IMG/VR virus record: IMGVR_UViG_3300032007_000018
Coordinates: 8,445-72,444 of that record
Source: a virus
Reading direction: 5' to 3' (one strand)
Length of the DNA: 64,000 nt
The notes beneath the pieces are model-generated. The model saw only the letters and a list, made by a program, of their open reading frames with translations. It made no database searches and was not told where the DNA came from. Shown here in pieces: positions 2,088-36,218 of this stretch (its first letter is position 1; every line of letters begins with the position of its first letter). The position numbers and the translations under genes were made by a program.

Positions 2088-2088
2088 A

Positions 2089-4594: not shown

Positions 4595-5521
4595 TTGATA
4601 AATATGATCAATGTTACAGAGGTTTCTATACAAGACTATTTTAATAAAAATGAAGAAGATAAGCAAAAATTTTATGATTTGATTTTAATAAATAATAATA
4701 AAGTTTCATCTAATACTCATTATAAAACGGTTATTTCGCCTGCGCCGCAAGCAAAAATCCCAGAAAAATTTTTTCATCAATTACAAGGCAAATTAAAATA
4801 TATTGCTCCACTACGAAAAAAGCATAAACAAAATGGTGGACTATCATTTTTAACCCTATGCGATTGTGGATAGTGGCATATTTTAGATGCGATAGATTTC
4901 AGAAAAGAAAAATAGACAATGTGTCCAACATGTAAATATAATAATATGACAACTATGAAGAATATTTCTGGATAGATTTTTGGATAGCTTTAGGCAATAC
5001 GCCCATCATCAAAACGTGGTTCTGATGGTTCTGTATATTGGATTTGTCAGTGTATAGATTGCGGTAATCAGTAGGAAGTAATTAAATATAATTTAACTAA
5101 AAAAGGTCATTTATGTGCTGTTTGCGGAGAAAAATCTAAAGGAGAATATAAAGTTGCTCAAATGCTTTAGGAAAATAATTTATGTTTTATAAGAGAAAAA
5201 ACATTTGAAGATTGTTTATTCCCAGATTCTTTCGCTCATGCAAAATTTGATTTTTTTGTAGATAATAAATATATTATTGAGATTGATGGATAGCATCATT
5301 TTTTTCCAGTGAAATATGGAAAAAATATAAGCGATCAAGATGCAAAATTATTATATAATAAAGTCCTTAATCACGATAGATACAAAAACCAATATTGTTT
5401 TTTGCATCAAATTCCTATTATTAGAATACCTTATTTAGCTATAGAAACTTTAAAGATAGAAGATTTAATGGTTGAAACAAGTAAATTTTTATTATATAAT
5501 ATAAGTATAAAAAATAATTAA
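4595..5521 (+). CDS. Putative freestanding homing endonuclease: repeated Zn-ribbon DNA-binding modules (YWICQCIDCGN) plus a C-terminal DUF559/Vsr-like PD-(D/E)xK nuclease domain. About 9 in-frame TAGs.
   Basis: Track ORFs 4595..4873 and 5309..5521 are in the same frame and the intervening frame is open except for TAGs. C-terminal FDFFVDNKYIIEIDGQHHF...IIRIPY. Paralog of CDS 15928..16809. Confidence 0.6.
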
Positions 5522-7651: not shown

Positions 7652-8188
7652 TTGTTGGCCCATTATGTAACTTGCTCCATCTGTAATAAACGTTTTGACC
7701 GCGATAAATTTCCGGCAGTCCTGACCAGCTCAAGACGCTATGCTCATGCGTCCTGTGCTGGATAGCTATCTGAAGAAGACGCATAGAAAGAAAAAGATTA
7801 TTTAGATTTAGAAGCATATATTATTAAGTTATTCAATTTAGAGCATATGGACGGTCGCATAACTCTTCAAATTAAGAAGTATATGCAAGACCATCCGGAG
7901 TATACATATTCAGGTATTAAAAGAACTTTACAATATTTTTATGAAGTAAAAGGCAATTCTATTGAAAAAGCGAATGGTGGAATTGGCATTGTTCCTTGGG
8001 TATACGATGAAGCAAAAAGATATTACTACAATCAATGGTTATTGAGCCAAAAGAATGCGGATAAAGATATTCAAGCATATACCCCAAAAGTAAAAGAAAT
8101 AACTATCAAACCGCCAAAACGAGAACCGAAGAAGAAGAGAATCTTTATGTTCCTAGATGAAGAGGAGGTCAAAGACTGTGGCAAGTAA
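7652..8188 (+). CDS. Hypothetical Zn-finger protein (CSICNKRF...HASC) with 2 in-frame TAGs. The start is a TTG near 7652/7655 after an AGGGGGA RBS.
   Basis: Frame 2 is open from 7652 and joins track ORF 7847..8188. Confidence 0.45.
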
Positions 8189-9722
8189 ATATATTGATAC
8201 AACCGCAATCATGTAGGTAATTGGTAATGTTTTTAATAATCCACAGCTTTTGGACTTTACAGATAAATATACAGTAAATGACGAAGATTTTCCAGACCAA
8301 TTTCATAAAATAGCCTTTGGCGCAATTTATAAGCTTCATGAACTTGGCGTTCAGAAGATAACACTAAATGCGATTGCAGACTTTCTGGCGGCGAGACCTA
8401 AAAGTGAAGCGGTATTCAAACAGCAAAAAGGCGAGGAATGGTTGCTCAAAGTCGCAGAGAATTGCACACCAAATGCTTTTGATTATTACTACGATAGATT
8501 AAAAAAGTTTACTTTATTAAGAGCATATAACGCTTATGGAGTAGATGTTACTGATATATATGATCCAGACGACATTCTTGATACTAAGAAAAGACAAGCT
8601 CAAGAAGATAAATTAGATAATATGAGTCTGGTTCAAATAGCGGATTTAGTTGATAAAAAGATAGAGGATATTCGTCTTCGATTCGTTGATGAAGTAATTG
8701 ACGAAGCGCAACAGGCTGGCGAAGGAATTTTTGAACTAATTCAAGGGTTCAAAGATAACCCAGAAGCAGGAGTATCTTTATATGGTCCGCTTATAAATAC
8801 AGTAACCCGTGGCGCACGATTGAAGAAATTCTATCTGCGCTCGGCCGCTACTGGTGTCGGAAAATCTCGTTCAATGGTGGCGGATGCTTGTTATATCGGA
8901 TGTAATAAGATGTATGATGAAATCTTCGGTTGGATTAAAACGGGACCAGCGCAGCCAACTTTATATATTGCAACCGAGCAAGATTTAACAGAAATTCAAA
9001 CAATGATGCTTGCATTCTTATCCAATGTGAATGAAGAACATATCATTGATGGTAAGTATGAAGGCGATGAAGAAGAGCGCGTGATGGAAGCTGGAAGAAT
9101 TCTTAAAGATTCTCCATTGTACGTAGAACATCTTCCCGATTTTTCGCTTCAAGATGTTGAGAACAAAATCAAGCGTAATATTCGTGATCACGATGTTAAA
9201 TATATTTTCCACGACTATATTCATACTTCAATGAAGATTCTTGAAGAAATTACTCGTCGTAGCGGTGGCGTTAAGTTGCGTGAAGACAACATCTTATTCA
9301 TGCTTTCTAACAAGATTAAAGATATATGTAATGAATATGGCGTATTTATTATGTCAGCGACTCAGCTAAATGCTGATTATCAAACTAGCGAGACTCCAGA
9401 CCAAAACTTACTTCGTGGCGCAAAGAGCATCGCCGATAAGATTGACTTCGGCGCGATTATGCTTCTTGTAAAAGATGATGATAAGAAAGGTTTGGAAAAG
9501 ATACTCGCTACTGGAACGTTTGAAGTTCCAACGATTAAGATTTCAATTTATAAAAACCGCCGAGGAAGATATAAAGGAATCTACCTTTGGTGTAAAGCAG
9601 ATTTAGGCACCTGCCGCATTAAACCAATGTTCGCAACGGGATGGGATTATGAACTTATCCCGATTGATGATACAAGAATACATATAGCAAGCGCATTTCC
9701 AGATGATGAAGATGAAGATTAA
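8178..9722 (+). CDS. dnaB: DnaB-like replicative DNA helicase (GTG start with AGGAGG RBS; TAG at 8211).
   Basis: Walker A GVGKS, a DnaB-like N-terminal domain and an arginine finger RRGR. In-frame with track ORF 8250..9722. Confidence 0.7.
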
Positions 9723-9733: not shown

Positions 9734-9958
9734 ATGCTTAGAAAAAGTGAAAAGTTTGGAACAAGTATTATGAAGCTCGGCTCTGAAACTGGTAGAGTCG
9801 GGTCCGTAGAGTATCAGATGCCGCAGAAGATGGCTGATATGCTCCTAAAAGAGCGTAAGGGCCAGGACAAGAATATGCGTCCGCAGGACTTTCTTGTGAA
9901 ATATGTTAATGACGAATGTCGTCTACTTTATAAGTGCGTGAAGGTGACCACTATCTAA
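9734..9958 (+). CDS. Hypothetical 74-aa protein.
   Basis: ORF track; RBS AAGGAGA. Confidence 0.5.
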   Translation: MLRKSEKFGTSIMKLGSETGRVGSVEYQMPQKMADMLLKERKGQDKNMRPQDFLVKYVNDECRLLYKCVKVTTI

Positions 9959-12099
9959 TGTTAGTCTTTGATAAACAAGAAATAAGAGACAGTTTATCAA
10001 TCGACGATATTTTTGACCTTCTAGAAGAGTGGGGCGGTGAGCCAGAACATTGTCCAACTGGCCTCATCGCCCGTACTATTTGTCATAACTTGCTAACAGA
10101 TGAAGCATCACGCAAATTATATTATTACGAGAACACTGGGCTATTTAGATGTTATACAGGGTGTGAAGATCCAGTCTTCGACATTTTCCAACTCTGTATA
10201 AAAGTAATGAATCTCCAGCATAATGTCGTATACGATTTAAATGATGCGGTCAGATGGGTGGCAAGAAGATTCGGTTTATCTGGCAGAGAAGAAGATAGCC
10301 CAGAAGAAGAAGGACTTGAGGATTGGAAAATTTTAGCAAACTATTCACGTATTTAGGATATACAAACTGCAGCTCCTCATGTCGTTCTCGAAGAATATGA
10401 TGATACAATTCTAACTCGATTTAATTATAATGTAAAGATAAAACCTTGGCTTGATGAAGGCATTTCTCAATAGGCGATTGAGCATGCCGAGATTGGCTTC
10501 TATCCAGGAGATGCACAAATCACTATTCCACATTTTGATAAGAATGGCAGATTTATCGGTCTGCGCGGACGCACAGTAGTTGCGGAAGATGCAGAAAAAT
10601 ATGGCAAGTATCGTCCCATAAAAGTCAATGGGCAAATGTATAATCATCCCCTTGGATTAAATCTTTATAATTTCAATAATAGTCGTTGTATTATTCCAAA
10701 GATGCGTAAAGCGATTGTTTTTGAGGGTGAACTATTCGCCCTAGTCTACTTTTCCCAGTTGCTACTGGGGGTCTGCGCGAAGGGAAAAATTCCCGTCAAT
10801 TTTTGGAAAGGCGCAGGCTAACGGGGAAGCCTAAAAATTTTATAAATTCATGGTAATCCCGTGGGAAAATCTGTTTAAACATCTAACTTCATTTTTCATA
10901 TATCAGTGAGAAAAGGAGTTGATTGTATGAACGTTATTTATGCTTATAAAAAGAAAAGTATAGATAAGATTGTTTATGTTGGTTAGACAAATAATTTAGA
11001 ATATAGACATAAACAACATATTTATTATGATCCATTTAATATTAATAATCCAGAGTATGAATATCCTCTTAGTAGAGGAATTCGTAAATATGGCGAAGAA
11101 GAATATTAGTTAATTGTTTTAGAAGAAAATATTCCAGATGATAAAATAAATGAACGAGAAATTTATTGGATAAAATATTATAATACATATTTTGATGGTT
11201 ATAATCAATCTACTGGTGGCACTAGCCCAGTAAAACCAATATATACAGATGATGAAGTGAATTAGGTAATTGAAATGTTAAAAGATGAAAGTTATTCATT
11301 TAATGATATTTCAAAGAAAACAGGATTTTCGTTAACTCATATTTATAATATAAATACTGGAAAAAGGCGCCCACAGCCAAATATACAATATCCAATTCGT
11401 TCAAATAAAACAAAAGGGACAAAAGGATTAAAATTTTCTCCGGAAGAGTGTAAAAAAATTCACGAAGAAATATTAAAAAATGATAAAACATTAAAAGAAC
11501 TTGGAGAAATGTTTAACTGTTCTTCTTCAACAATATCTGATATTATTAATGGAAAAACTTAGGCATATAAATTAGAAGGTTATTCTTATCCATTAAGAAA
11601 TAATCGTTCTATAGGGGCTAAATAGATGTGGAAAAACAGATAAACCTGTATCGACTATCCCGATAAAGGGAGTAGGAGTATTATTAGCACATACTCCGAA
11701 ATAGTAGCAGTTTTAAAAACTGGAAGATATAGTCAGTGCCGTTGGAAACAATGGAATAACACGGAAAAAAGTTGTTTGTTGTATCAAACATATTTTGGAT
11801 TTGAAAATGATATTTCTGTCGCTTGTTGCGGCAGTAGCTTATCTTCCTATCAGACGCAACTTCTTATTGATGCCGGGGCGCAAGAAATTATCGTCGCTTT
11901 TGATAGATAGTTTCAAAATGTTGGTGATGATGAATATTGCCATTTAGTAAATAATCTAAAAAAGATTCAAATGAAATATAAGAACTATGTAAATATCTCT
12001 TATATCCTCGATCGCAAGAAGATAACCGGATATAAGTGCAGTCCAATTGATTGCGGACGAGAAAAATTTTTGGTATTATATAAGGAGAGGGTTCAGTGA
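9958..12099 (+). CDS. dnaG: DnaG-like DNA primase split by an intron. Exon 1 is 9958..10728 (CHC2 Zn-finger CPTG..H..C..C and the start of TOPRIM ...AIVFEGE). Exon 2 is ~11764..12099 (KSCLLYQTYFGFENDISVACCGSS...LLIDAGAQEIIVAFDRQ). Both exons are in frame 1 and carry TAG=Gln codons.
   Basis: Zn-finger and TOPRIM motifs were read from the translation. The two exons join in frame across a 1035-nt insert (a multiple of 3). Confidence 0.55.
10729..11763 (+). mobile_element. Group-I-like self-splicing intron inserted in the primase TOPRIM region, carrying a GIY-YIG homing endonuclease ORF.
   Basis: R-like element ...ATCGACTATCC (~11652-11663) and S-like element AAGATATAGTCA (~11717-11728) can pair (GACUA/UAGUC) to form P7. 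The 5' splice site follows a T and the 3' splice site follows a G. Stop codons TAA lie in every frame between the exons. Confidence 0.5.
10927..11565 (+). CDS. GIY-YIG homing endonuclease (I-TevI-like) inside the intron, with 3 in-frame TAGs.
   Basis: NVIYAYKKKSIDKIVYVG(Q)TNNLEYRHKQH...YPLSRGIRKYGEEEY(Q)LIVLEE...EREIYWIKYYNTYFDGYNQS. TAG falls on the conserved Gln of YVGQT. Confidence 0.75.
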
Positions 12100-12447: not shown

Positions 12448-14226
12448 ATGGAATATCAACTTTTGAAGCCAAGCATCCCGGTACAACACGATTTTTCACC
12501 GGTCGAATTGGTCTTCGCGAACAGAGGAATGTTTCCCTCTGACATTTATCATTATCTCCACACAACAAGAGAAGATATTCTCGATCCTAGTTTATTAGAC
12601 AATATTGACTAGGGTGCGAAAATGTTCGTGCGACACCTGGCTGCAGGCGACAAGATTTTCGTATAGGTTGATAGCGATGTAGATGGTTATACATCTGCGG
12701 CAGCCATCATCAACTATGCAAATCGAATTGCTCCAGGCCATGCGCAGTAGAATATCTCCTACCGTATCCACGATGGAAAAGAACATGGAATTATTTTAGA
12801 TACAATTCCAGAAGATGTAAAATTAGTTATAGTTCCGGATGCGGGAAGCAACGACTACGAGCAACATAAAATTTTACACGATAAAGGTGTAGATGTTCTT
12901 GTAATCGATCACCACGAAGCCGACAAGGTTTCAGCCGACGCCTGCATAATTAACAACCAGTTGAGCAGTCAGTACTCAAATAAGACACTCTCTGGAGTTG
13001 GTGTTGTTTACAAATTTTGTCAATATATTGACAAATTCCTTGATAAAAATTATGCAGATGATTTGCTTGACCTTGTTGCTGTTGGCATGGTCTCTGATAT
13101 GATGGATTTGAGAAGTTTTGAGACAAGAGAACTTATTAGTCTTGGCGCTAATTAGTTAAGAAATCCATTTATCATTGATTTTGTCAATGCGTAGAGTTAT
13201 TCCTTAAAAGGAGAGGTTACACCTTTTGGAATTTCTTTCTACATCGCCCCATATATCAATGCCACAATCCGCGTTGGTACATTGGACGAAAAACTGCTCT
13301 TATTTGAATCAATGTTAGACTTTAAATCATATGAGTCTATTCCTTCAACTAAGCGTGGTTGTAAGGGACAATTTGAAACAAGAGTAGAGCAGGCTTGTAG
13401 AAATTGCAAAAATATCAAGAATAGGCAAACAAAAGCAAGAGATACAAGCCTTGAAGTAATTGAAGGAATCATTGAGAGAGATAATCTTTTGTCGCACCCA
13501 ATTTTGATTATTCAACTTGATAATCCAGTAGAAGAGAATCTAACCGGATTGATTGCTAACCAAATCATGGGTAAATATATGCGGCCGGTGCTTCTACTCA
13601 ATCGACACGTTGAGATTGATGAAGAAACAGGCGAAGTAACAAAGTTCGCTTGGCGTGGCTCTGGTCGTAATGCGACTTATTCTAAACTCGCTAATCTGCG
13701 TGAGTTTCTATCTGAAAGTGGTCTTGTAGAATACGCTCAAGGACACGCATCAGCTTTTGGCGTGAGTATTTTAGATGAAAATTTAGAAGCATTTAAGAAT
13801 TATATTGATGAAAAATTAAAAGATTTTGATTTTAATAACTGTTACCGTGTTGATTTTATTTGGATTGCTAATGAAGTAGAAAAATATAAACAAGACATAA
13901 TGGATATTGGTAAGCTTGGGGCGTTTTGGGGTCAAGGATTACCTGAACCACAAGTGGCTATTGAAACCATTCAAGTCAGAAGCGCAAACTTACAACTTAT
14001 GTCGCCGGATAAAAAACCAACATTAAAGATTACTCTCCCTGGTGGTTTGACTTTGATTAAGTTCGGGTCGAGTCAAGAAGAATATGAAAGCTTATATTCT
14101 GAAACAGGTTGTATAACAATTAATGTCGTTGGCACTTGTAACCTCAATGAGTGGAACGGCAATTTCAGTCCTCAAATTATTATTGAAGATTATGAGATTG
14201 TTAATAAATCAGCTTATTATTTTTAA
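12448..14226 (+). CDS. recJ: RecJ-like DHH/DHHA1 phosphoesterase (ssDNA exonuclease), ~592 aa with ~6 in-frame TAGs.
   Basis: Motifs DSDVDG, DAGSND, VLVIDHH (DHH) and a GHASAFG DHHA1-like motif. ATG 12448 has RBS AAGGAGG and is in-frame with track ORFs 12961..13155 and 13282..14226. Confidence 0.65.
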
Positions 14227-16814: not shown

Positions 16815-18024
16815 ATGGAATTAAGTAGAAAACAAGAGGAGGGACTGCAAACTGTGTTAGCCAGATATAAAGCGGGTGAAAAATATACCGTAATATCTGG
16901 CTACGCTTAAAGCAGGAAGCGGAAAATCGACGTTAATAAAATTCATTATCGCTGCGATGAAGCTCTACCCAAACGAAGTAAGATATATCGCTTATACGGG
17001 TAAGGCCGCGAATGTATTAAAAAATAAGGGATGCGAAGGTGCTACTACCGCGCACAAACTCATTTATCACGCAAAGCTAATGCCCAATGGAAAATATATT
17101 TTTACTCCAAAAAAAATAACCGAAATGGAAAGAGAAATTAAGGTTGTAGTTGTAGACGAGGTTTCGATGTTGCCAAAATCTATGTGGGATTTACTATGTC
17201 AGTATAATTTCTACATCATAGCCTGCGGCGACCCGGAACAGCTACCTCCTGTACCAGATGGTAAGGAAGATCCAGACAATCACGTTTTGGATAATCCTCA
17301 CATCTTCCTTGACGAGATTATGCGTCAGGCCCAAGAGAGTGAGATTATTCGTCTCTCAATGCACATAAGAGAAGGTAAGCCTTTATTTACCTTTCCTGTG
17401 TAGAATGAGCAGGTTATGATTTTTGATAAGAAAGACGTAACAGATTCAATGCTACTCTGGGCTGATCAAGTATTGTGCGCGACCAATAGAAATAAGGTTG
17501 CTCTCAATCAGCGTATGCGGCAAGCCTATAACTTCCTACCCGAAACTCAAGTCGGAGACAAAATTATCAATGTTCATAATGAATGGGACATATGCTCAAA
17601 TCTTGAGAACCCATTAACTAATGGGGTAATTGGTAAGATATTACAAATGGAAATGCAAGAATGGGAATATCCTTATTGGTTGCGCAATGAAGTACTGCGT
17701 GTTCCTATCCTTGTCGCTACTATCTCCGGAGACGAAGAGGGTGAAGCATTTCAGATGCTGCCTTTTGACTATAATGAGATAGCAACAGGACAGCCGAGTT
17801 TGAGCGGCAAAGAAGAGTATACAATTATGAAGCGACTGGAAATGGCTGTTCCGCTTCATGCAAATTATGGTTATGCCATTACCGTATGGAAAGCGCAAGG
17901 TAGCGAGTGGGGTAAGGTTTTACTCTTCCAGGAACCTGGCTGGCCGAAGCAGCCAGACGATCGCCGCAGATATATGTATACCGGCATAACAAGAGCAGTA
18001 GATAAATTAGTGGTGGTGTCATAA
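16815..18024 (+). CDS. Dda/RecD-like SF1 DNA helicase. The N-terminal 31 aa are in frame 3 (ATG 16815) and the rest in frame 1 from ~16909 (Walker A AGSGKST), implying a +1 frameshift at GCT-TAA-A, or an assembly error. There is also a TAG at 17401.
   Basis: Motifs VVVDEVSM (II), GDPEQLPPV (III), ITVWKAQGSEWG and TGITRA (V/VI). Track ORFs 16957..17403 and 17416..18024 are in the same frame, separated by TAG. Confidence 0.55.
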
Positions 18025-18680
18025 TGGGACAATATAGTAATAAAGGATTATATAACTCTTACAGAAAAAACAACAAAGAAAGAGCTGAACTTGACTACTA
18101 TGCAACTCCAACGGCAGAAGTTGAGAATATTCTTAATGCTCTTAACTATAATTTTAACGGTCTTAGTATTCTTGAGCCTTGCGTTGGAGGCGGCCATATG
18201 CTTGATGGTATCATTAATTATTGCGATCAACGTGGCCAGACTCCTAAGTCTATTATCGGGACCGAATGGGCAGACAGGGGATATCGCAACGACAGATGTA
18301 ATCTCACTTATGGCCTTGATTTTCTTGATGATAATTACCCTGCTAGCAAAGCAGACGTAATTGTTATGAATCCTCCTTATGCAACTCTTGAGCCTTTCCT
18401 TATTCGCGCTCTTGAGATTGCGCAACGAGACTTAATTGTGCTTTGCCGCACACAGGTTCTCGAAGGAGCAAGCAGATATAAAAATATCTTTTCTACTAAT
18501 CCTCCAGATCAAATCTATCAGTATATTGATAGAATTCAGTGCTGGAAGAATGGTAAGAAACCTACTGGTTCTTCTGCGCAAGCCTATTGCTGGCTAGTGT
18601 GGAAAGGCATGAATATCACTGGGACGTTAATTCGCCCGAATATAAAACCCCAGCTCAACTGGATTCACCGAGCAGATTGA
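18024..18680 (+). CDS. DNA N6-adenine (or N4-cytosine) methyltransferase.
   Basis: Motif I ILEPCVGGGH and motif IV NPPY. Confidence 0.65.
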   Translation: MGQYSNKGLYNSYRKNNKERAELDYYATPTAEVENILNALNYNFNGLSILEPCVGGGHMLDGIINYCDQRGQTPKSIIGTEWADRGYRNDRCNLTYGLDFLDDNYPASKADVIVMNPPYATLEPFLIRALEIAQRDLIVLCRTQVLEGASRYKNIFSTNPPDQIYQYIDRIQCWKNGKKPTGSSAQAYCWLVWKGMNITGTLIRPNIKPQLNWIHRAD

Positions 18681-18696
18681 TTTATATAAAAATTTA

Positions 18697-18705
18697 TGTT
18701 ATAAT
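18697..18705 (+). promoter_or_regulatory. Extended -10 promoter TGTTATAAT upstream of the polymerase gene.
   Basis: Motif recurrence. Confidence 0.4.
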
Positions 18706-18736: not shown

Positions 18737-21700
18737 ATGAAGTCATACTTCGGAGTTCATAATCATACAGCCGTGGGTTCAAATATTAGACTTATTGACT
18801 CAATCAACAAACCAGCAGACCTCATCGACAAAGCGATCGAGTTAGGACTCTCTGGGATTGCGATAACAGATCATGAATGTCTTTCGGCTCACGTAGAGGC
18901 TGAAAAGCATATGGCAGAAATAAAGGAAGCGCATCCAGATTTTAAACTGGCATTCGGCAATGAGATTTATCTTGTTGATGAAAGAAAACCAGGTCAAAAA
19001 TATTATCACTTTATTTTAATTGCCAAGGATGCACTAGGTCATCGCGCACTTCGAGAACTAAGTTCAAGGGCGTGGATGAATTCGTATGTGGACCGCCGTA
19101 TGGAGCGTGTTCCAACTACGAAAGAGGAGTTAAAAGAGATTGTAAATAAGTTCAAAGGTCATTTGATTGCAACAACCGCTTGTATTGGTGGAGAATTGCC
19201 AACTCTCGCATTGACTTATACAAAAGCAAGAATGGTAAATGATAACAACAATGCAATGTATTATTACAAAGAAATTGACAAGTTTTTGAACTATTGTTTG
19301 GAACTATTTGGAGAGGATTTTTACATTGAGTGCGCGCCGGGAACGGCCCCAGATCAGGTGGCGGCAAATAAAGCCTGTCGGAAAATTTCAGATTTTTATG
19401 GTATTAAAATGGTAGTCGGGACAGATGCGCACTACCTAGATAAAGACGCAAGGGCCGTTCATAAGGCTTACTTAAACTCCAAGGAAGGAGACCGCGAAGT
19501 CGATGCGTTTTATGAGTATACCTACCTTATGGATTACGATGAAGTTACGAATCTATTAGGTTTTACTTTTGATGGAGATATGGATTATGCATATCAAGTA
19601 GCGGATAACACTCTAGCAATACAAGAGAAGATACAAATGTATTCTCTCTTTCACAAACAAGATATCCCATCAGTAGAAGTACAGAATTATCCAAAGTCCG
19701 CGTGGTGGGGAGTAAATAACGACTACGCGAATGAAATGGAAAAGTACCCAACCTTAAAGAAACTATTCACATCTGACGATATTCAAGATAGATATTGGGT
19801 AAATCAATGTTGGGATAAACTCAACGAGATTGGCCATGGTTGGGATAATTATAATGAAACTGGCGATGATCGTTATCTCGTGGAGCTTGAAGAAGAGGCG
19901 CGAGTAAAGAGTGTCATTAGTGAAAAGTTAGAAACAAATATGTTCCGTTATCCAAATACACTTCAACACTATATTGATTTGATTTGGGATTGCGGTTCGA
20001 TGGTAGGTGCCGGACGAGGTTCATCTTGTGCGGCGTTAAACCATTATTTGATGGGTATAACGCAGTTAGACCCGATTGAATGGGAGCTTCCATTCTTCCG
20101 TTATTTGAACGACGAGCGTGTTGAATTAGGCGATATTGATATTGATATCTGTCCTTCCAAGTGCGGTCTCGTCTTACAGAAGATTGCGGCTGAGCGCAGT
20201 CAGATGTTTAATGATGATGTTCCGGAATGGGCGAAGAAGTTGTTTGGTTGTACGAGAATCTCAACTTTTGGAACTGAAGGAACAAAGTCGGCAGTTTTGA
20301 CAGCGTGCCGTGGTTATCGGTCTGAGGATTATCCCGATGGAATTGATGTTGATGAAGCGCAGTATATGGCATCATTGATTCCTCAAGAGCGTGGATTCTT
20401 GTGGCCGATTAAAGATGTTATCGAAGGAAATGAAGAGAAGAATCGTAAGCCAGTAGCAAGTTTCATTCGAGAAATCAATAATTATCCGGGACTTCTGGAT
20501 ATTGTTAAAGGTATTGAAGGCTTGGTAAGTAAGCGTAGTTCTCACGCATCAGGTATCGTTCTTTTCGATGGTGACCCATTCGAGCATAGCGCTTTTATGA
20601 AAACTCCAAAAGGAGAAATCATTACTCAATATAATCTGCACGATGCAGAGTATATGGGATTAACAAAATATGACTTCCTGGTAACAGAAGTTCAAGATAA
20701 AATCGTTCAAACAATCCAGTTCCTCCAGGAGGATGGAGAGATTGAAAAAGATTTAAGTCTGCGCGAAGTCTATAATAAGTATCTGCATCCAAGCGTATTG
20801 CCGATTAAAACAGATACAAAAATGTGGGATGCATTGGGCGATGTATCGGTTATCAATACATTCCAATTCGATAGCGCAGAGGGATCAAAGGCAGCAAAAC
20901 AATTAAAACCACGAACTATCTTAGAGATGGCCGATGCCAATGGTCTGATTCGTCTGATGGGCGAGGAAGGGCAGGAGCGCCCGATTGATAAGTATTATCG
21001 TTATAAAAATGATATTAGTTTGTGGTACGAAGAGATGGATAACTTTGGTTTGACAAAAGCAGAACAGAAAACTTTGGAGCCATATTTTAAACCATCTTAT
21101 GGTGTTCCACCTAGCCAAGAGCAGTTAATGAAGATGCTGATGGATCCAAACATCTGCGGATTCACCTTGGGAGAGGCGAACAACGCACGTAAAATCGTCG
21201 GTAAGAAGCAGATGAAAAAGATTCCAGCACTTCGTGAGCAGGTTCTCAAGCAGGCGAAGAGTCCGCGTCTCGGCCAGTATATTTGGAGATTTGGGGCTGG
21301 GCCGCAGATGGGTTATTCATTCTCTGTTATTCACGCACTCGCATATAGCTTCGTCGGGGCGCAAACATTGTATCTCGGCACTCATTGGAATCCAATCTAT
21401 TGGGATACGGCATGTCTGGTGGTTAATAGTGGTTCTCTTGAGGACGCGGTTGATGAAGACGGTGAAGCGCTCTATGATGAAGAGATAGAGGAAGAAGCTA
21501 CCGATGATAAGAAAAAGAAAGCAACAAGTACTGACTATGGTAAAGTCGCAAAAGCATTGAATGATATTATCAATGCCGGTATTAACGTCAGTCTTGTGAA
21601 TATAAACGGTTCTGACTTTGGTTTTAAGCCAGACGTAAAGAACAATCGAATCCTCTTTGGTATGAAAGCATTACTGAATGTAAATGATGATTTGGTAAAA

Positions 21701-22747
21701 CGAATCATTGATAATCGTCCATATAGAGGAATTAAAGATTTTTATAAAAGAATCAAGCCAACTAAGCAAGCAATGGTCTCTCTTATAAAGGCTGGCGCCT
21801 TTGATGATATGATGGAGAGAAAAATTGCGATGGCATGGTATATCTGGGAAACTTGCGATAAAAAATCAAGATTGACTTTGCAGAATTTCCCAACGTTAGT
21901 AAAACAAGATATGGTTCCGAAGGATACGCCAGAAAGAGAGGCCGCGTATTCAATATATGAATTTAATCGGTATCTTAAAGCCATATGTAAAACTAAAGAG
22001 TATCCTAATGATTATCGCCTTGATCCTCGCGCAATTGAATTTCTTTATAAGATGGGATTTGAAAATCTGATAGTAGATGATAATCTTTTGGATATGAAGA
22101 AATGGGATAAGAAGTACCAAGGATTCATGGACGTATTCAGAGAGTGGCTGCGCGCAGACGGCGATGAGATTCTAAATGAACTTAATACGAGAATTTTCAA
22201 AGCCGACTGGGACAAGTATGCAGGCGACGCAAATTATTCTGCATGGGAAATGGAAGTTCTTTGTTTCTATAAGCATGAACACGAACTCGCGCATGTTGAT
22301 ATGAAGAAATATGGTTTGAGTAATTTCAGCGAGTTGCCAGAAGATCCAGAAGTAGAGAGAACATTCTACAAGGCAAATAAAGCAATCAATATATTCAAAC
22401 TGAGCCGTATTGCAGGAACCTGTATAGCAAAAAATAAAGTAAAGAGCGTAGTTACAATTCTAACAACTGATGGCGTTGTTAATGTCAAGTTCAGAAAAGA
22501 ATATTTCGCATTGTTCGATAAGAGAATTTCTGAGCGTGGCGAAGATGGTGTAAAGCACGTCGTTGAAAAGAGTTGGTTTGATAGGGGAAGTATGATTATG
22601 GTACAGGGTATCCGGTCTGGTGATACATTCATCACAAAGAAGTATGCATCAACAGTTGGGCATCAATTGTATCATATTATTGAAGTAACTCCAAGTGGAG
22701 ATTTGATTCTTCAGAACGAAAGATATAAAGGGGAGGGTGGAGAATGA
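18737..22747 (+). CDS. dnaE: DNA polymerase III alpha subunit (DnaE-type, N-terminal PHP domain), 1336 aa, with no in-frame TAG.
   Basis: N-terminal PHP motifs (HNHT...ITDHE) and length. An uninterrupted 4-kb ORF with RBS AAGCGGAGG. Confidence 0.75.
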   Translation: MKSYFGVHNHTAVGSNIRLIDSINKPADLIDKAIELGLSGIAITDHECLSAHVEAEKHMAEIKEAHPDFKLAFGNEIYLVDERKPGQKYYHFILIAKDALGHRALRELSSRAWMNSYVDRRMERVPTTKEELKEIVNKFKGHLIATTACIGGELPTLALTYTKARMVNDNNNAMYYYKEIDKFLNYCLELFGEDFYIECAPGTAPDQVAANKACRKISDFYGIKMVVGTDAHYLDKDARAVHKAYLNSKEGDREVDAFYEYTYLMDYDEVTNLLGFTFDGDMDYAYQVADNTLAIQEKIQMYSLFHKQDIPSVEVQNYPKSAWWGVNNDYANEMEKYPTLKKLFTSDDIQDRYWVNQCWDKLNEIGHGWDNYNETGDDRYLVELEEEARVKSVISEKLETNMFRYPNTLQHYIDLIWDCGSMVGAGRGSSCAALNHYLMGITQLDPIEWELPFFRYLNDERVELGDIDIDICPSKCGLVLQKIAAERSQMFNDDVPEWAKKLFGCTRISTFGTEGTKSAVLTACRGYRSEDYPDGIDVDEAQYMASLIPQERGFLWPIKDVIEGNEEKNRKPVASFIREINNYPGLLDIVKGIEGLVSKRSSHASGIVLFDGDPFEHSAFMKTPKGEIITQYNLHDAEYMGLTKYDFLVTEVQDKIVQTIQFLQEDGEIEKDLSLREVYNKYLHPSVLPIKTDTKMWDALGDVSVINTFQFDSAEGSKAAKQLKPRTILEMADANGLIRLMGEEGQERPIDKYYRYKNDISLWYEEMDNFGLTKAEQKTLEPYFKPSYGVPPSQEQLMKMLMDPNICGFTLGEANNARKIVGKKQMKKIPALREQVLKQAKSPRLGQYIWRFGAGPQMGYSFSVIHALAYSFVGAQTLYLGTHWNPIYWDTACLVVNSGSLEDAVDEDGEALYDEEIEEEATDDKKKKATSTDYGKVAKALNDIINAGINVSLVNINGSDFGFKPDVKNNRILFGMKALLNVNDDLVKRIIDNRPYRGIKDFYKRIKPTKQAMVSLIKAGAFDDMMERKIAMAWYIWETCDKKSRLTLQNFPTLVKQDMVPKDTPEREAAYSIYEFNRYLKAICKTKEYPNDYRLDPRAIEFLYKMGFENLIVDDNLLDMKKWDKKYQGFMDVFREWLRADGDEILNELNTRIFKADWDKYAGDANYSAWEMEVLCFYKHEHELAHVDMKKYGLSNFSELPEDPEVERTFYKANKAINIFKLSRIAGTCIAKNKVKSVVTILTTDGVVNVKFRKEYFALFDKRISERGEDGVKHVVEKSWFDRGSMIMVQGIRSGDTFITKKYASTVGHQLYHIIEVTPSGDLILQNERYKGEGGE

Positions 22748-23475: not shown

Positions 23476-25713
23476 ATGATTAAAGTAGTAAAAAGAGATG
23501 GAACAGAAGTTCCATTTGATAAACAAAAAATTATAAACGCAATCAATGCGGCTTTCATTGAGGTTGATGGGCAACTTTATGAAGATGATACTGCAAAAGA
23601 TATTGCAAATGAAATTGCCTAGAAATGTAATGATACAGGAGTAACCGTAGAAGATATTTAGGATGCGGTTGAGCAATATTTAATGCGTTCTGAGCGACCA
23701 GATGTTGCTCGCGCATATATTCGCTATCGTTATAAAAAAGAAGTTGCCAGAGATGTCAAAAGCGATTTCTTTGATGCTATTGGAGAAAAACTCGAAGCGA
23801 GAAATGTTCAAAATCAAAATGCAAATGTTGATGAACGCTCTTTTGGAGGTCGTATTGGCGAAGCATCTTCTTATATGACTAAACAATATGCGTTAGATAA
23901 TCTAATATCAAAAATGGCAAGAGAGAATCATGAAGGTAATATGATTTATATTCATGACCTTGATGCATATGCAGTTGGTTCTCATAATTGTCTAAGCATT
24001 CCTTTTGATGATTTACTTGCAAATGGATTTAATACTCGTCAAACAGACGTGCGGCCGGCCGGTTCAGTGAACACCGCGTTCCAGCTCGTAGCAGTGATTT
24101 TTCAGTTGCAAAGTCTGCAACAGTTTGGTGGAGTAAGTGCTACCCATCTTGATTGGACAATGGTACCATATGTGCGCAAGTCTTTTCATAAACATTTTAG
24201 AGATGGAATTGTTTGGGTTGAACACAGAATTCTTGACTGTACACCACCTGATGGGGTAGAAATTACTGATTTAGCTATTGATGGGGAATTTTATAAAGAT
24301 CTTAAATGCCCGAATGCTTATGATTATGCTATGGTAATGACGGAAAGAGAAGTCCATCAAGCGGTTGAGGGAATGTATCATAACCTTAATACCCTTCAAT
24401 CCAGAAGCGGCAATCAACTTCCATTTACCTCAATCAATTACGGTACTTGCACTCTTCCAGAAGGAAGAATGGTAACTGAAGCATTACTCAATGTTTCTAT
24501 TGAAGGACTTGGAAAATTACATAAAACATCTATATTTCCGTGTGGAATTTTCCAGTTGATGAAAGGAGTTAATCGTAAGCCAGGAGATCCAAACTATGAT
24601 CTCTATCAATTAGCTCTTGAATCAACTGCTAAAAGACTTTATCCAAACTATGCAAATGTGGACTGGTCTGGAAATGCTGGATACGATAAAAACGACCCAC
24701 GGACTTACTTTAGTACCATGGGATGCCGCACTGCGAATGGCTGGGATATTAACGGATTCGGACAACTCAAAGATGGACGTGGAAACATTTGTCCTGTAAC
24801 TATTATCCTACCAACTCTTGCGATGATGGCAAAAAAGGGTGCAGAAAGTGTAAATGATCCATATATAACTGAAAAAGATTTAATTGATTGCTTTATGGAT
24901 ATCCTTGATGATAAAATCCATGAAGCAAAAGATATGTTAATTGAACGCTTTGAATGGATTTGCTCACAAGATCCATCAAGTGCAAAATTTATGTATGAAA
25001 ATCATACAATGCTTGGCTATCATCCAGAAGAAGGAATTAAGAGCGCTCTTAAGCATGGAACTATTGTTATTGGTCAACTGGGCCTCGCAGAATGCCTTCA
25101 AATCCTAATTAAAACTGACCATACTACTCCAGAAGGAATGAAATTAGCCAAGAGGATTGAGCAATTATTTAAAGACCGTTGCGCCGAGTTTAAAGAAGAA
25201 TATAAATTAAACTTTGGTGTATATTATACGCCTGCTGAAAATCTTTGCTATACTGCGTTAAAGAATTTCAGAAAGAAGTATGGTGTTATTCCAAATGTAA
25301 GTGATAAAGAGTTCTTTACAAATAGTATGCACGTTCCCGTCTGGCATCAACTCAGTCCATTTGAAAAGATTGATATTGAGAGCCAGTTAACCGGATATTC
25401 AAGTGCTGGTTGTATTACTTATGTAGAACTTGATGCCTCTGCAGTCCATAATACAGAAGCATTAGAGCAGATTGTAAATTACGCTATGGATCACGATATT
25501 CCATATTTCGCTATCAATGTACCGAGTGATACTTGCCTTGATTGCGGATTCCAGGGTGAGATAAATGATTCCTGTCCTGCTTGCGGCGGACGCAATATTT
25601 AGCAACTTCGTCGTGTCACCGGCTATCTGACCGGAAACTATACTACCGCTTTTAATCTTGGAAAACAAGATGAAGTTCATCATAGAACTAAGCACGTTGG
25701 AGTGATGGAGTAA
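23476..25713 (+). CDS. nrdD: Anaerobic ribonucleoside-triphosphate reductase NrdD, with an N-terminal ATP-cone and C-terminal glycyl-radical motif. 3 in-frame TAGs, including the apparent stop of the track ORF at 25602.
   Basis: ATP-cone MIKVVKRDGTEVPFD. The track ORF 23683..25602 is extended in-frame through TAG to RVTGYLTGNY...(glycyl radical) and TAA 25713. The Cys-rich C-terminus CLDCG..CPACGG is present. Confidence 0.8.
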
Positions 25714-32721: not shown

Positions 32722-32760
32722 AAGGGAGATACCTTTATGGTATCTCCCTTTTTTTTTATT
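32722..32760. terminator. Bidirectional terminator (agggagatacc/ggtatctccct with A-run and T-run) at the convergence point of the + and - modules.
   Basis: Read from sequence. The - strand fibre gene stops at 32759. Confidence 0.7.
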
Positions 32761-34063
32761 ATCTAATTCTAATCCAAACTCGATCTTTTACTTCAACATT
32801 TCCAGTACCCCACGTCTCATAATCGGGAACTGCACTAATTGTGCCAATAATACGACTTGGATAATCTTTTTCTTCCTCTGGCGTCATAATTGAAACTGTA
32901 CCATTTGGGCCAGAACATACAGGTTCTCCAATATGCTTGCGGAATTCTTCTCTGTCTTCATACGGGTAAGCTAAAACACGCCCAGAAGAAGCAATAGGTG
33001 TTTTACAATTATCTGTTTCACCGATTGCGAAACCAAAAGTATCTGAAACTATTTCACAACCAGGTTGAAGTCTATTATCAGTTAATACGAGAGTATCATC
33101 ACCAACTTCGCGTACACAACGACCTGGTTCTAAAACTTCTGATTGACGATATTCTGCATAGTCATTCCATACTGCGCCGTAAACTTTTGAAGCATATACA
33201 TTTGTTAAAGCAGTGCCACCATTACAAAAACGGTAAGCTGAAATCGTAGCACTAGATGTACCATCTGCCCACTTATATCCTACATGAATAGTATTACTAC
33301 TAGAAAATTTATTATTAAATCTTATTTCATTTGTTGAAACTAAATTTAAATAATTTGCATAAGTAGCAGTCGTTGCGGTTGCTGCGTTACCAGATAAATT
33401 TGCTACTTTTAATGTTTGAGTCGAAGTCTAATAAGCAAAATTATCATCGTAAGCTGGACGGCCGGTTACATTATCATTATAAGCAAACCAGACTCTTCTC
33501 CATGTTGCACTAGATGATGCTGCATCTCCAGCAGCTAGATTTGTTAATTTACTTGCTGTTGCGGCATTACCAGAAATGCTAATCCCCCAAGTGCCACTGG
33601 CATTACTACCATCGGTAGCAGCTAATGTTTTAGAAGCACTTGGCAAAGTATAGGTAGCTCCACTTGTACCAGATATTTTCATGTACCATTTTGGATTATC
33701 ATCTGTTGCACCGCTACAACTAGTTCCTCCAAAAGTGACAATCGGCTGGCTATGACAACAATCTAATAATCCTCTAGTGTCATTGCATCCCCACACGAGA
33801 GATGCACTATATGTCGCACTATTCCAAGCAGCTGGACTATTATTGTAAGCTATCGCAATAGAGGGTGAATAACCTCTACCATTAAGAGTTGCCCATCCTC
33901 CAGAAGATAATGAACCAGTATAGGCTTTAATATTAGCTTGTAAATAATATGAAGTTGCAGTAGGAACACCATTATTTATATAAACAGGTTGCGTTCCACT
34001 ACCATATGTATTAACTAGTTTTTTTGCCTCATGGGATGTAAATAAATTTGACCCAGTAGCCAT
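32759..34063 (-). CDS. Tail fibre protein (434 aa). It reads through the TAG at 33428 into a 222-aa C-terminal extension.
   Basis: Track ORF 33428..34063 plus in-frame continuation to TAA 32759. RBS AAGGAGG. Gly/Ser/Thr-rich fibre-like sequence. Confidence 0.55.
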
Positions 34064-34080
34064 ATTAATTCACCTCCTTA

Positions 34081-35874
34081 TTACGATACATCCGCAGATG
34101 TAGCATCGGAAATCTCAGAACCGCGAATAACAAGAATATATCCACTTACATTGCCACCTACTGCAACGGTGGTATTTAATGTAATCGTACCTGCAGTACT
34201 GCCAGTTCCAGCAGAAGTCCAAGTGATACCTGCGCCCAGATTAGATTCTCCGCTAGTAATAATAATTTGAATTACATAAGAATTTACAGTAAAGGAAGCG
34301 TGAGTTAATATAACACCTTTCTTTCCACTATTAATTGTGAAAGGAACTTTCTAAACAATGGAAACTGCTGTTGGAACACCATCATTCCAGTAAACTGGAG
34401 TATAAGCATCGCCATAACTATCTGCCGTACCTATATATAATTTTTGCCATTTATACGTTGTATTACCAAGTGTTTGAAAATTGTTTGCCATTGGTAATAA
34501 ACTACCCGCGAGTCTTTCATTACCATTCCAATCAAGGGTTCTGGCATTGGACTTACTAGAACTATCAACACCATTACCAACAATTTCAACATAAGATCCT
34601 CGACTTGCTGAATCATTGCCATGTCCAGTATCAGGTTTATTATACTATCCAAAAACATGCTAAACAGCAGCCTCAGCAGTAGTATAATATCCTTCTGCAT
34701 GAGAATAATTACCACTAGCAGTTGTATGATATCCTTCTGAATGAGAGCCAGTACCACTAGCAGTCGTATTATCACCTATTGCACTTGAGCAATCGCCACT
34801 AGCAGTCGTATAATACCCCTCTGCATGAGCGTAAGTGCTCGCTGTCGTATGATCGCCCTCAGCATGCCCACACCAGCCATTAGCCGTAGTAGATAGTCCT
34901 TCGGCATGGGTAAAGCGACTACCAGCAGTGGTTGCATATCCTTCTGCGTGAGCATAATCATTTGTTGCATTGGTGCTTTCTCCTTCTGCATGTGAAGCAT
35001 ACCCCGAAGCTGTCGTATAAGAACCTTCTGCATGAGCACAATAGTTGCTGGCTACAGTAGTACATCCTTCTGCATGAGTATAATTACCACTAGCGGTTGT
35101 ATCATATCCCTCAGCGGTTACATATGATCCTAATGTAGTTCCAGATTTTTGCCCGCCGTTTATCCAACCACCGATATGTTTTGAGTCAGGAATAATAACA
35201 ATTCCACTATCGGCAAAAGTGCCATGAGTATCATTGTAATAGGCGATTGCATTCTATGTTGTTGTTAAGTCAGCAGCTGTAGCCGTTGCGGAATTACCAC
35301 CATAGCTTGTAATAGCTGTTGGGACGCCTGCATTCCAATATATTGGCTCTGTAGATGAACCATAGCTATCTGATGGCAAATTCCAGTTAGCCATAATCCA
35401 TCCAGGATTTGAACCACCAGTTCCCTCGGTATAAAAGAAAATAATAATAGAACCGGCATCCCAAGATTCCACCGAGGTATTACCTGCGGCTTTACCAAAA
35501 CATTTATAAATTGGTACACTATCTTCTTCTCCATTAATGATTAATTCTGGATTTTCTGCGCTATTTTCGTGCGCAAAATAAACAGCGATCATTGAACCAA
35601 CTTGTTGAGTCCAACCTTCTGTAGCGATAGTAATTTCTTTAAATCTTAAAGAGGCCGCAGTATTGCATACCGTGTAAGGTAGCATAAGTCCAGTCGTTGC
35701 AACATCAGAAAATTTACTATTTAACGGTACTCTGGTACCGGTTGTAGTACCATTACCATCCGTATCAATGTAAAATTTATTTGTTGTTGCATCAAAATAA
35801 CAATATCCTTTATTATATGTAGCAGGTAAATTGTTATTTGAATCAATATTGTTAAAAATCTTAAAGAGTGCCAA
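34081..35874 (-). CDS. Tail fibre protein (~597 aa) with ~10 tandem 14-aa YadA-head/Hep_Hag-like repeats (..SHAEGY.TTASG.Y..) and about 5 TAGs.
   Basis: Track ORF 35254..35874 (TTG start, RBS AAGGAG) continues in the same frame to TAA 34081. The track ORFs 34431..35039 in this span are spurious alternative frames of the repeats. Confidence 0.55.
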
Positions 35875-35917
35875 TCTTCAGCAACTCCTTTCTATATAAA
35901 TCTATTCTAATTTATAT

Positions 35918-35998
35918 AAAAAAAAAGCCAAATCTCATAAAGAGATTTGGCCTATATAAAAAAATTTAAAGGGAAAGGATAATTCCTTTCCCTTATGT
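35918..35998 (-). terminator. Two tandem rho-independent terminators on the - strand (ggccaaatctc..gagatttggcc+T9 and aagggaaagga..cctttccctt+T-run).
   Basis: Read from the reverse complement, downstream of CDS 36000..36218. Confidence 0.5.
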
Positions 35999-35999
35999 A

Positions 36000-36218
36000 T
36001 TAATCATTAAAAGCCTGGTATTCAGCAACTTCATCAATGAATTCTTCAATATCAGCTAAAATGGCAGCTCTGTTGTTTGCATAGGTATCACTATCATCAA
36101 TATTGAAGCTAATATTAAAGTTGTTACCAGCACGGCTACCACTAAAATAGCCAATTTGAGCGCCATTAATAATGCAAGCGCCACTATAATTAGTATTCTT
36201 TGAATCGAGTCTAAGCAT
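36000..36218 (-). CDS. Hypothetical 72-aa protein.
   Basis: ORF track; RBS GAGGAGG. A TGCTATAAT extended -10 element lies on the - strand at 36258..36266. Confidence 0.5.
   Translation of the reverse strand: MLRLDSKNTNYSGACIINGAQIGYFSGSRAGNNFNISFNIDDSDTYANNRAAILADIEEFIDEVAEYQAFND

What the first reader, a model, noticed from the sequence alone, without database searches (positions are those of the whole stretch)
18737..22747. The two longest replication genes (Pol III alpha, 4 kb; ligA, >=1.4 kb) contain no TAG, whereas structural genes average one TAG per ~250 codons
This fits the model in which early essential genes must be translatable before a phage suppressor tRNA accumulates, while late genes depend on recoding. 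It is not absolute: DnaB, RecJ, NrdD and two homing endonucleases do contain TAG, so some of these may be middle or late genes.
Basis: seen in the sequence. Interest (0 to 1): 0.55.

Follow-up and report, generated by a model that had tools for sequence, protein, structure and literature searches.

The report
TAG-free polymerase in an amber-recoded phage
This phage reads the stop codon TAG as glutamine. Its main DNA polymerase and ligase avoid TAG, and so do their relatives, which fits a published idea that such phages make a few key enzymes before the code switch.

Summary
The window is part of a roughly 155 kb phage that reads TAG as Gln (code 15). Pol III alpha (18737-22747, 1336 codons) and the LigA fragment (3-1424) have no in-frame TAG. 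I counted 151 TAG in 20,367 coding codons across the window.

Inside the window alone the evidence is moderate:
- P is about 2e-5 per codon, but 0.04-0.06 once gene-to-gene scatter or GC3 is modelled.
- TAG density tracks GC3, not the replication/structural split.
The rate is 1/120, made up of 1/361 in one tail block and 1/68 in the other.

Relatives settle the question. In 15 TAG-recoded relatives the polymerase carries 4 TAG among 507 Gln-type codons, against 17% in neighbouring genes. This holds where its GC3 is as low as or lower than the neighbours'. A host sigma-A-type promoter sits just upstream of the gene in 10 of 11 relatives.

- 17 of 29 replication genes need TAG readthrough, including DnaB, primase, helicase, RecJ and NrdD.
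- Three relatives have TAG at invariant Gln positions in the polymerase.
- One tail-module gene is as TAG-poor as the polymerase.
- No suppressor tRNA was found.

The early-standard/late-recoded model is already published (Borges 2021, Yutin 2021). This is a new example, not a new principle.

The parts
18737..22747 (+). DnaE/YorL-type DNA polymerase III alpha gene, 1336 codons, 0 in-frame TAG (20 CAA, 19 CAG, 34 out-of-frame TAG)
18677..18705 (+). Sigma-A-type promoter just upstream of the polymerase: -35 TTGATT (18677-18682), 17-nt spacer, extended -10 TGTTATAAT (18697-18705). An SD sequence GGAGG lies at 18726-18730.
   Evidence: The promoter is present upstream of the polymerase in 10 of 11 relatives.
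3..1424 (+). 3' part (473 codons) of the NAD-dependent DNA ligase gene LigA, 0 TAG. The full gene is 642 codons and also has 0 TAG.
8178..9722 (+). DnaB helicase gene, 1 TAG at codon 13, inside the DnaB N-terminal domain
9958..12099 (+). Primase gene in two pieces (9958-10821 and 11644-12099, 3 TAG in total). It is interrupted by an insertion carrying a GIY-YIG endonuclease gene (10927-11643, 5 TAG).
   Evidence: Relatives have one uninterrupted ORF of 369-381 aa.
12448..14226 (+). RecJ gene, 5 TAG in 592 codons. It is TAG-rich across the clade (53/185 Gln-type codons).
16894..18024 (+). RecD-like helicase gene, 3' part, with 1 TAG in mid-gene between the AAA_30 and UvrD_C_2 domains. An endonuclease-like gene (15928-16809, 4 TAG) lies upstream.
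23476..25713 (+). NrdD gene, 3 TAG in 745 codons. Two are in the ATP-cone domain and one is near the glycyl-radical end.
2050..5521 (+). Region with two TAG-dense endonuclease-like genes (2050-3078, 7 TAG; 4604-5521, 8 TAG). They flank a thymidylate-synthase-like gene and a small ORF.
49917..63998 (-). TAG-dense tail/baseplate block downstream of the tape-measure gene: 69 TAG in 4665 codons (1 per 68), GC3 about 0.20
   Evidence: Orthologues in distant recoded relatives are also TAG-rich.
32759..49814 (-). TAG-poor distal tail or fibre-like block: 15 TAG in 5417 codons (1 per 361). It includes 46940-48736, whose orthologues stay TAG-poor (1/54).

Best explanation
The window belongs to a roughly 155 kb phage of a Bacillota-type host that reads TAG as glutamine.

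Once TAG can be decoded, C-to-T change turns CAG into TAG in most genes. Purifying selection removes those changes from a small set of genes that must be translated efficiently while host release factor 1 still reads TAG as stop, at the onset of infection. That set is Pol III alpha, LigA, a GyrA-like subunit and, less strictly, DnaB, the RecD-like helicase, an SSB-like protein and a Sak4-like ATPase. The polymerase has its own host-type sigma-A promoter, so it can be transcribed and translated by unmodified host machinery.

Genes needed later or in tiny amounts tolerate or accumulate TAG. Their output is then tied to the code switch. These are the homing endonucleases, RuvC-like resolvase, RecJ, NrdD/NrdG, dUTPase and the tail/baseplate proteins.

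What is shown: the code, the gene-specific and clade-conserved TAG depletion, its independence from GC3, and the promoter. What is inferred: the timing, the suppressor tRNA, and the reason for selection.
For: Code:
- Treating TAG as sense raises long-ORF content from 13,057 to 21,504 aa.
- Residues aligned to TAG in orthologues are Gln in 40% of cases, against a 3.4% background.

Depletion in the polymerase:
- 0 of 39 Gln-type codons in the window.
- 4 of 507 across 15 orthologues, against 366 of 2098 in neighbouring families.
- 3 of 92 Gln-bearing columns against 214 of 670, Fisher 7e-11. At conserved Gln columns the polymerase has CAA 157, CAG 105 and TAG 3, against 596, 174 and 126 elsewhere.

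Not compositional:
- There are 34 out-of-frame TAG in the polymerase.
- In relatives the polymerase GC3 (0.13-0.29) is equal to or below that of neighbours, yet it has 0-2 TAG.
- (TAG+CAG)/Gln is about 30-44% in the larger families, while TAG/(TAG+CAG) runs from 2% in the polymerase to 83% in RuvC. TAG therefore replaces CAG specifically (computed).

Not a recent arrival:
- Orthologues at 53-85% identity lie in conserved gene order in all 15 loci.

Other large DNA enzymes:
- Full LigA has 0 of 19 and the GyrA-like gene 0 of 14.
- LigA is TAG-free in the recoded relatives.

Promoter:
- TTGATT, 17 nt, TGTTATAAT lies before the polymerase. It is present upstream of the polymerase in 10 of 11 relatives.

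Late suppression must be nearly complete:
- The 2081-aa tail protein carries 37 TAG. Selection against TAG is therefore most plausible only while suppression is incomplete.

The model itself is published.
Against: - Primase, DnaB, helicase, the SSB-like and Sak4-like proteins, RecJ and NrdD all carry TAG. Some follow the same class of promoter. The replisome cannot be completed without readthrough.
- Three relatives have TAG at invariant Gln positions in the polymerase.
- A tail-module gene (46940-48736) is as TAG-poor as the polymerase across distant relatives.
- Within the window the late-module label adds nothing once GC3 is included.
- No suppressor tRNA or release-factor gene was seen.
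- Orthologues are not phylogenetically independent.
Confidence: 0.6

Rival explanations
1. Yield tuning rather than timing. TAG decoding always competes with release factor 1, so each TAG lowers output. Genes whose products are needed at full yield avoid TAG whenever they are expressed. Genes whose products should be scarce, such as homing endonucleases and nucleases, accumulate it.
For: - TAG-poor and TAG-rich genes lie in the same co-directional cluster behind the same kind of promoter.
- A tail-module gene is persistently TAG-poor.
- The endonucleases are the most TAG-dense genes, at 20 per 1000 codons.
- Families form a graded series rather than two classes.
Against: Very long tail proteins carry 29-37 TAG each. 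That is only workable if late readthrough per codon is close to complete, which leaves little room for a yield penalty at that stage.
Confidence: 0.22
2. Short residence. The TAG-free genes were acquired recently from standard-code donors and have not yet drifted towards TAG.
For: - Standard-code relatives exist for the tail module and for LigA.
- The polymerase has the highest GC3 of the long genes in this window.
- Exchange of tail-fibre genes could explain the TAG-poor tail genes.
Against: - The polymerase is present in conserved gene order in all 15 relatives, down to 53% identity.
- Its Gln codons have switched between CAA and CAG many times without becoming TAG.
- Its GC3 has fallen to 0.13-0.16 in relatives with no gain of TAG.
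Confidence: 0.08
3. Chance plus composition. TAG is simply rarer in GC-richer genes, and the longest TAG-free ORF was picked after the fact.
For: - GC3 correlates with the TAG fraction (rho = -0.49).
- With GC3 or overdispersion modelled, P rises to 0.044-0.055 for the polymerase.
- LigA alone is not significant.
Against: Clade-level depletion holds at matched or lower GC3. The polymerase contains plenty of out-of-frame TAG.
Confidence: 0.04

Closest known systems
Alternatively coded (code 15, TAG to Gln) gut phages with partial recoding, as in Borges et al. 2021/2022 (Agate, Sapphire, crAss-like and Lak clades) and Yutin et al. 2021 (crAss-like)
   Same: - In-frame TAG read as Gln.
- Structural genes are heavily recoded.
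- Core replication enzymes are in standard code.
- An intron-type homing endonuclease in an early gene is preferentially recoded.
- Standard-code close relatives exist.
- Genome size of about 130-160 kb resembles Agate or Sapphire.

   Different: - The replication module here is not a clean standard-code block. 17 of 29 genes carry TAG. Borges et al. do note that use of alternative code is variable in the replication machinery.
- No suppressor tRNA, release factor or lysis cassette lies in the window.
- Clade membership by TerL phylogeny was not tested.
SPbeta-type replication module of Bacillus and Enterococcus phages (YorL polymerase, YorF, YorH, YonG)
   Same: The polymerase is 37-39% identical over 99% of its length to YorL of SPbeta, phi3T and Enterococcus phages. 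Neighbouring genes hit Pfam YorF, Phage_SPbeta_YorH and YonG_N.
   Different: In the literature and records consulted here these phages are not among the stop-codon-recoded groups; I did not test their code. There is no nucleotide-level match in the phage collection.
phAss-1 / proposed Phassvirus (Babkin et al. 2023): 136 kb gut phages with TAG-recoded ORFs and three suppressor tRNAs
   Same: Large gut phages with TAG to Gln and many recoded core genes.
   Different: No megablast match between window 18000-30000 and the phage collection (whether the collection holds phAss-1 was not checked). No suppressor tRNA was seen in the 64 kb examined.

Membership tests
Code-15 (TAG to Gln) alternatively coded phage | Conserved genes are broken by in-frame TAG and restored when TAG is read as sense | tested here: met
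   Long-ORF content rises from 13,057 to 21,504 aa. Genes then tile the window tightly. Pfam domains span TAG in the helicase, NrdD, RecJ and DnaB.
Code-15 (TAG to Gln) alternatively coded phage | TAG aligns with glutamine in homologues | tested here: met
   Gln makes up 40% of 1712 aligned residues, an 11.8-fold enrichment. CAA and CAG are the top aligned codons.
Code-15 (TAG to Gln) alternatively coded phage | Phage-encoded suppressor tRNA with anticodon CUA | tested here: inconclusive
   No tRNA in the window, in about 13 kb of same-genome flanks, or in 34 related loci. Borges et al. detect suppressors in only 40% of TAG-recoded genomes.
Early-standard / late-recoded partition (Borges, Yutin model) | Structural and lysis genes use the recoded stop | tested here: met
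   10 of 14 minus-strand genes carry TAG. The tail/baseplate block has 1 TAG per 68 codons. The tape-measure fragment has 32 TAG in 1197 codons.
Early-standard / late-recoded partition (Borges, Yutin model) | DNA replication machinery is encoded in standard code | tested here: not met
   This holds only for Pol III alpha, LigA, the GyrA-like gene and a few small genes. 17 of 29 replication and nucleotide-metabolism genes contain TAG.
Early-standard / late-recoded partition (Borges, Yutin model) | TAG-free genes are expressed before TAG-containing genes | not testable with these tools
   The only proxy is a conserved sigma-A-type promoter before the polymerase. The same promoter type precedes TAG-containing genes.
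DnaE/YorL-type Pol III alpha | PHP, Pol III alpha core, finger and HhH domains in that order, at full length | tested here: met
   Pfam PF02811, PF07733, PF17657 and PF14579. 99% coverage against YorL.
NAD-dependent DNA ligase (LigA) | Adenylation, OB, Zn-finger, HhH and BRCT domains | tested here: met
   for the window fragment. for the full 642-aa product.

The most novel reading that the evidence does not exclude
TAG load may be a conserved, graded, gene-family-specific label that splits the replication module into two tiers.

The first tier is a TAG-free core: Pol III alpha, ligase, gyrase A and, nearly so, DnaB, the helicase and the SSB-like protein. It is made by host machinery.

The second tier is TAG-dependent: primase, RecJ, RuvC-like resolvase, NrdD/NrdG and dUTPase. 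It becomes available only after the code switch.

Under this reading the genetic-code switch itself would time the move from replisome assembly to full replication, recombination and DNA processing, and not only lysis and virion assembly.
Probability: 0.2. Interest if true: 0.5.

Novelty: new member of a known kind. Interest (0 to 1): 0.27.

Why it matters
The result adds a well-controlled example to the published model. In a lineage with an SPbeta-like replication module, avoidance of the recoded stop in the replicative polymerase persists over deep divergence (down to 53% amino-acid identity) and does not depend on base composition.

It also shows the limits of the simple early-equals-standard-code rule. 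Most replication genes here do need readthrough, and at least one tail-module gene avoids TAG just as strongly.

For annotation, the practical lesson is that TAG-free ORFs in such genomes look normal under code 11 while their neighbours are shattered. The code has to be judged for the whole genome.

Tried and rejected
- Megablast of 18000-30000 against the phage collection found no match.
- Rfam at gathering threshold found nothing in the window. E-value-level scans of the primase insertion and of 28.7-30.0 kb gave only hairpin-type noise. The putative introns are therefore unclassified.
- tRNA searches of the window and 34 loci found none.
Proteins were then given as letters with TAG as Q.
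- A look-up of the small tail gene failed once because I gave wrong coordinates. It worked on the second try.
- Searching for relatives with the 117-aa protein at 52871-53224 gave one weak locus.
- PHROGs and Pfam on the tail genes and a PDB sequence search for 46940-48736 gave no usable function. "Structural" therefore rests on position downstream of the tape-measure gene, on protein size and repeats, and on one weak tail hit.
- A 5' bias of TAG in replication genes looked real in the window (P = 0.004). It was weak in the clade, with P = 0.04, and 0.24 when the window's own columns are left out. It is not claimed.
- GC3 as the cause of the TAG-free polymerase was considered and rejected on the clade data.
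- TAG acting as a true terminator was considered. By my own count from the translations, 4 of 151 TAG lie in the last 10 codons, against about 4 expected, so there is no sign of it.
Full report
**What the window is**

With the standard code, ORFs of at least 150 aa sum to 13,057 aa. Treating TAG as sense raises this to 21,504 aa. Treating TGA as sense gives only 14,977 aa. Under the TAG-sense reading, ORFs tile the window almost without gaps. They run on the plus strand from 1 to 32719 and on the minus strand from 32759 to 64000. This matches the GC-skew switch near 32 kb.

The plus-strand block encodes the following proteins:
- LigA, a thymidylate-synthase-like protein, an SSB-like YorF-family protein and a Sak4-like AAA_24 ATPase.
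- DnaB, a split primase, RecJ and a RecD-like helicase.
- A 218-aa protein I guessed to be a methyltransferase, with no family hit.
- Pol III alpha, NrdD, and products I read from the sequence as NrdG, dUTPase-like and RuvC-like.

The polymerase is 37-39% identical over 99% of its length to YorL of SPbeta-type Bacillus phages and to Enterococcus phage polymerases. Together with AGGAGG ribosome-binding sites and the SPbeta-family neighbours, this points to a Bacillota host.

The minus-strand block lies directly downstream of a 3059-aa tape-measure gene in the same genome. It consists of very large proteins, some with fibre-like repeats. Family searches gave almost nothing for these proteins, so "tail/baseplate/fibre module" is an inference from context.

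Contigs from ENA sample ERZ27256887 carry the same sequence. L030 has 0 mismatches over 11,975 bp. L035, from the same sample, has the same ORF lengths and TAG counts for the tail genes it shares with the window. A JGI contig of 155.5 kb also carries it.

**TAG means glutamine**

I aligned 28 gene families between the window and 15 related loci. Residues opposite a TAG are Gln in 40% of 1712 cases, against a background of 3.4% (11.8-fold). CAA and CAG are the commonest aligned codons.

**Checking the observation**

My gene table has 55 genes and 20,367 codons, with 151 in-frame TAG, or 1 per 135.
- Pol III alpha (18737-22747): 0 TAG in 1336 codons, 20 CAA, 19 CAG and 34 out-of-frame TAG.
- LigA fragment: 0 TAG in 473 codons. 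The full gene, read from the identical contig, has 0 TAG in 642 codons.
- There are four endonuclease-like genes, with 7, 8, 5 and 4 TAG.

Structural genes carry 1 TAG per 120 codons, not about 250. That average hides two blocks:
- 32759-49814 has 1 per 361.
- 49917-63998 has 1 per 68.

LigA is also not the second-longest replication gene. NrdD has 745 codons.

**How surprising is a TAG-free polymerase within the window?**

Against the rest of the window the probability of zero is 2.4e-5 per codon and 7.8e-5 per Gln codon. Those figures assume all genes share one rate, and they do not. Heterogeneity gives chi2 = 109, df 39, P = 1.4e-8.

More careful comparisons give weaker results:
- Against same-module non-endonuclease genes: 0.004.
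- Against genes of similar GC: 0.007.
- Beta-binomial fitted to the other genes: 0.044.
- Logistic model on GC3: 0.055.

LigA alone is about 0.02-0.05.

The TAG fraction falls with GC3 (rho = -0.49). In a model with both GC3 and a late-module term, GC3 is significant (z = -4.2) and the module term is not (z = 1.5). Replication genes other than the polymerase and LigA have the same TAG fraction as the tail block 32759-49814 (odds ratio 1.08, P = 0.87).

On the window alone the finding is therefore suggestive, and confounded with composition.

**Relatives resolve the question**

A scan of IMG/VR found 15 loci encoding polymerases 53-85% identical to this one, all in TAG-recoded contexts.
- The orthologues carry 4 TAG among 507 Gln-type codons (16,271 codons).
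- The neighbouring families carry 366 among 2098, or 17%.
- Counting alignment columns, to reduce pseudo-replication, 3 of 92 Gln-bearing columns ever hold TAG in the polymerase, against 214 of 670 elsewhere (Fisher 7e-11).
- At conserved Gln columns the polymerase uses CAA 157, CAG 105 and TAG 3. The others use 596, 174 and 126.

In the relatives the polymerase's GC3 is 0.13-0.29, equal to or lower than that of its neighbours. It still has 0-2 TAG, while neighbours run at 15-29%. GC3 is therefore not the cause.

From the counts, (TAG+CAG)/Gln is about 30-44% in the larger families. TAG/(TAG+CAG), by contrast, runs from 2% in the polymerase to about 82% in RecJ and RuvC. TAG thus replaces CAG by a single C-to-T change, and this replacement is blocked in the polymerase.

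LigA is also TAG-free in the recoded relatives that carry it. The GyrA-like gene upstream of the window has 0 TAG in 782 codons.

Families form a series:
- Polymerase: 3% of Gln columns ever hold TAG.
- A lysozyme-like gene: 4%.
- DnaB: 9%.
- Sak4-like ATPase: 14%.
- SSB-like protein: 15%.
- Helicase: 18%.
- Primase: 33-44%.
- NrdD: 44%.
- RecJ: 46%.
- RuvC-like resolvase: 52%.

**Evidence on timing**

A family of complete sigma-A-type promoters (TTGAnn, about 17 nt, TGnTATAAT) lies in plus-strand intergenic gaps at 1695, 4143, 5488, 7613, 15496 and 18697. The last lies 32 nt upstream of the polymerase start codon. A promoter of this type is present upstream of the polymerase in 10 of 11 relatives. 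That fits transcription by unmodified host RNA polymerase.

No such promoter lies in the tail operon between 64000 and 36300. One lies at 36256 on the minus strand.

The same promoter type also precedes TAG-containing genes, so it does not separate the two classes.

- 17 of 29 non-endonuclease replication and nucleotide-metabolism genes need readthrough. They include DnaB, both primase exons and the helicase.
- L006 and L007 carry TAG at one invariant Gln column of the polymerase, and L003 at another. A TAG-free polymerase is a strong bias, not a necessity.
- In distant recoded relatives (27-45% identity), the orthologues of 49917-63998 remain TAG-rich, with a TAG/Gln fraction of 0.36-0.48. 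The tail-module gene 46940-48736 stays at 1 of 54. Strong avoidance is therefore not confined to replication genes.
- No suppressor tRNA was found anywhere I could reach.

One indirect argument still favours timing over simple yield tuning. The tail proteins carry 29-37 TAG each. Late readthrough must therefore be nearly complete, and selection against TAG should bite mainly while it is not.

**Comparison with what is known**

Borges et al. describe exactly this model. Early genes are translated in the host's standard code, and code-change factors are then produced. Structural and lysis genes are recoded. [quoted passage not shown] Yutin et al. report reassignment mostly in the late genes of crAss-like phages.

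The present case is a further example, in a lineage with an SPbeta-like replication module. Its size is comparable to the Agate and Sapphire clades. Clade membership was not tested.

**Verdict**

Interest is low to moderate.

Noticed in passing
window 9958-12099; L003, L005, L008, L012, L013: The primase gene is split after about residue 264 by an insertion of roughly 1 kb carrying a GIY-YIG endonuclease gene (10927-11643). Five relatives have one uninterrupted ORF of 369-381 aa. L004 has the same endonuclease at 98% identity while the flanking exons are 85-87% identical, so the element looks mobile. Rfam does not recognise an intron there.
   Followed up: partly
window 15537-18024: The RecD-like helicase ORF (16894-18024) has its Walker A motif upstream of any start codon. 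It lacks the first 33 or so residues seen in the 404-aa orthologues. An endonuclease-like gene (15928-16809) sits in between, so this is probably a second intron-type insertion.
   Followed up: partly
L030 1726-4726 (same genome, upstream of the window): GyrB appears as a 518-aa piece and a 66-aa GyrB_C piece, separated by another GIY-YIG gene. This would be a third interrupted replication gene.
   Followed up: no
window 1695, 4143, 5488, 7613, 15496, 18697 (+) and 36256 (-): A family of complete sigma-A-type promoters with an extended -10 box (TGnTATAAT) and a -35 box lies in intergenic positions. There are 10 matches to the core motif against 1.6 expected by chance.
   Followed up: partly
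window 10782-10806, 29794-29818, 29869-29893: A 25-nt element, GGGAAAAATTYCCGNNAATTTTTGG, occurs three times against zero expected. One copy is at the start of the primase insertion, upstream of its endonuclease. Two copies lie just upstream of the TAG-rich block starting at 29911. It may be a regulator site or a phage-specific promoter.
   Followed up: no
window 29186-29232 and 29235-29697: A strong bidirectional terminator hairpin closes the long plus-strand block. It is followed by a minus-strand gene of about 154 codons with 1 TAG, encoding a membrane and coiled-coil protein. That gene is not in my gene table.
   Followed up: no
window plus-strand genes 1-28284: In replication genes, 14 of 27 TAG lie in the first quarter of the gene (KS P = 0.004). 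TAG positions are uniform in endonuclease and tail genes. Across the clade the bias is weak (P = 0.04) and vanishes when the window's own columns are excluded (P = 0.24).
   Followed up: yes
window 32759-63998; L045, L057, L060-L062: TAG density in the tail module is bimodal, at 1/361 against 1/68. The difference between gene families persists in relatives only 27-45% identical.
   Followed up: partly
L046-L056, L058, L059; L022-L024, L026: Relatives of the tail module show no TAG recoding, and relatives of LigA appear to end the gene with TAG. The genetic code therefore varies within this lineage.
   Followed up: partly
window 5536-6468 and 29911-30309: The only TAG of the SSB-like protein lies 22 codons before its end. 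Standard-code translation would drop the C-terminal tail ending in GGFNF. Another small protein ends in PEFNF.
   Followed up: no
window 3075-4145: A single TAG joins a 92-residue YonG_N-like segment to the thymidylate-synthase domain, and an ATG follows 4 codons later. A code-11 gene call in another contig splits this into two proteins.
   Followed up: no
window about 11975: Two independent assemblies (ENA k141_1173200 and, by my coordinate arithmetic, JGI Ga0256407_10000190) both end near this position inside the primase insertion. This suggests presence/absence polymorphism of the element.
   Followed up: no
window 34639-35112 (-): Ten tandem 42-nt (14-aa) repeats, with a recurring HAEG motif, lie in a 597-aa fibre-like protein.
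   Followed up: no
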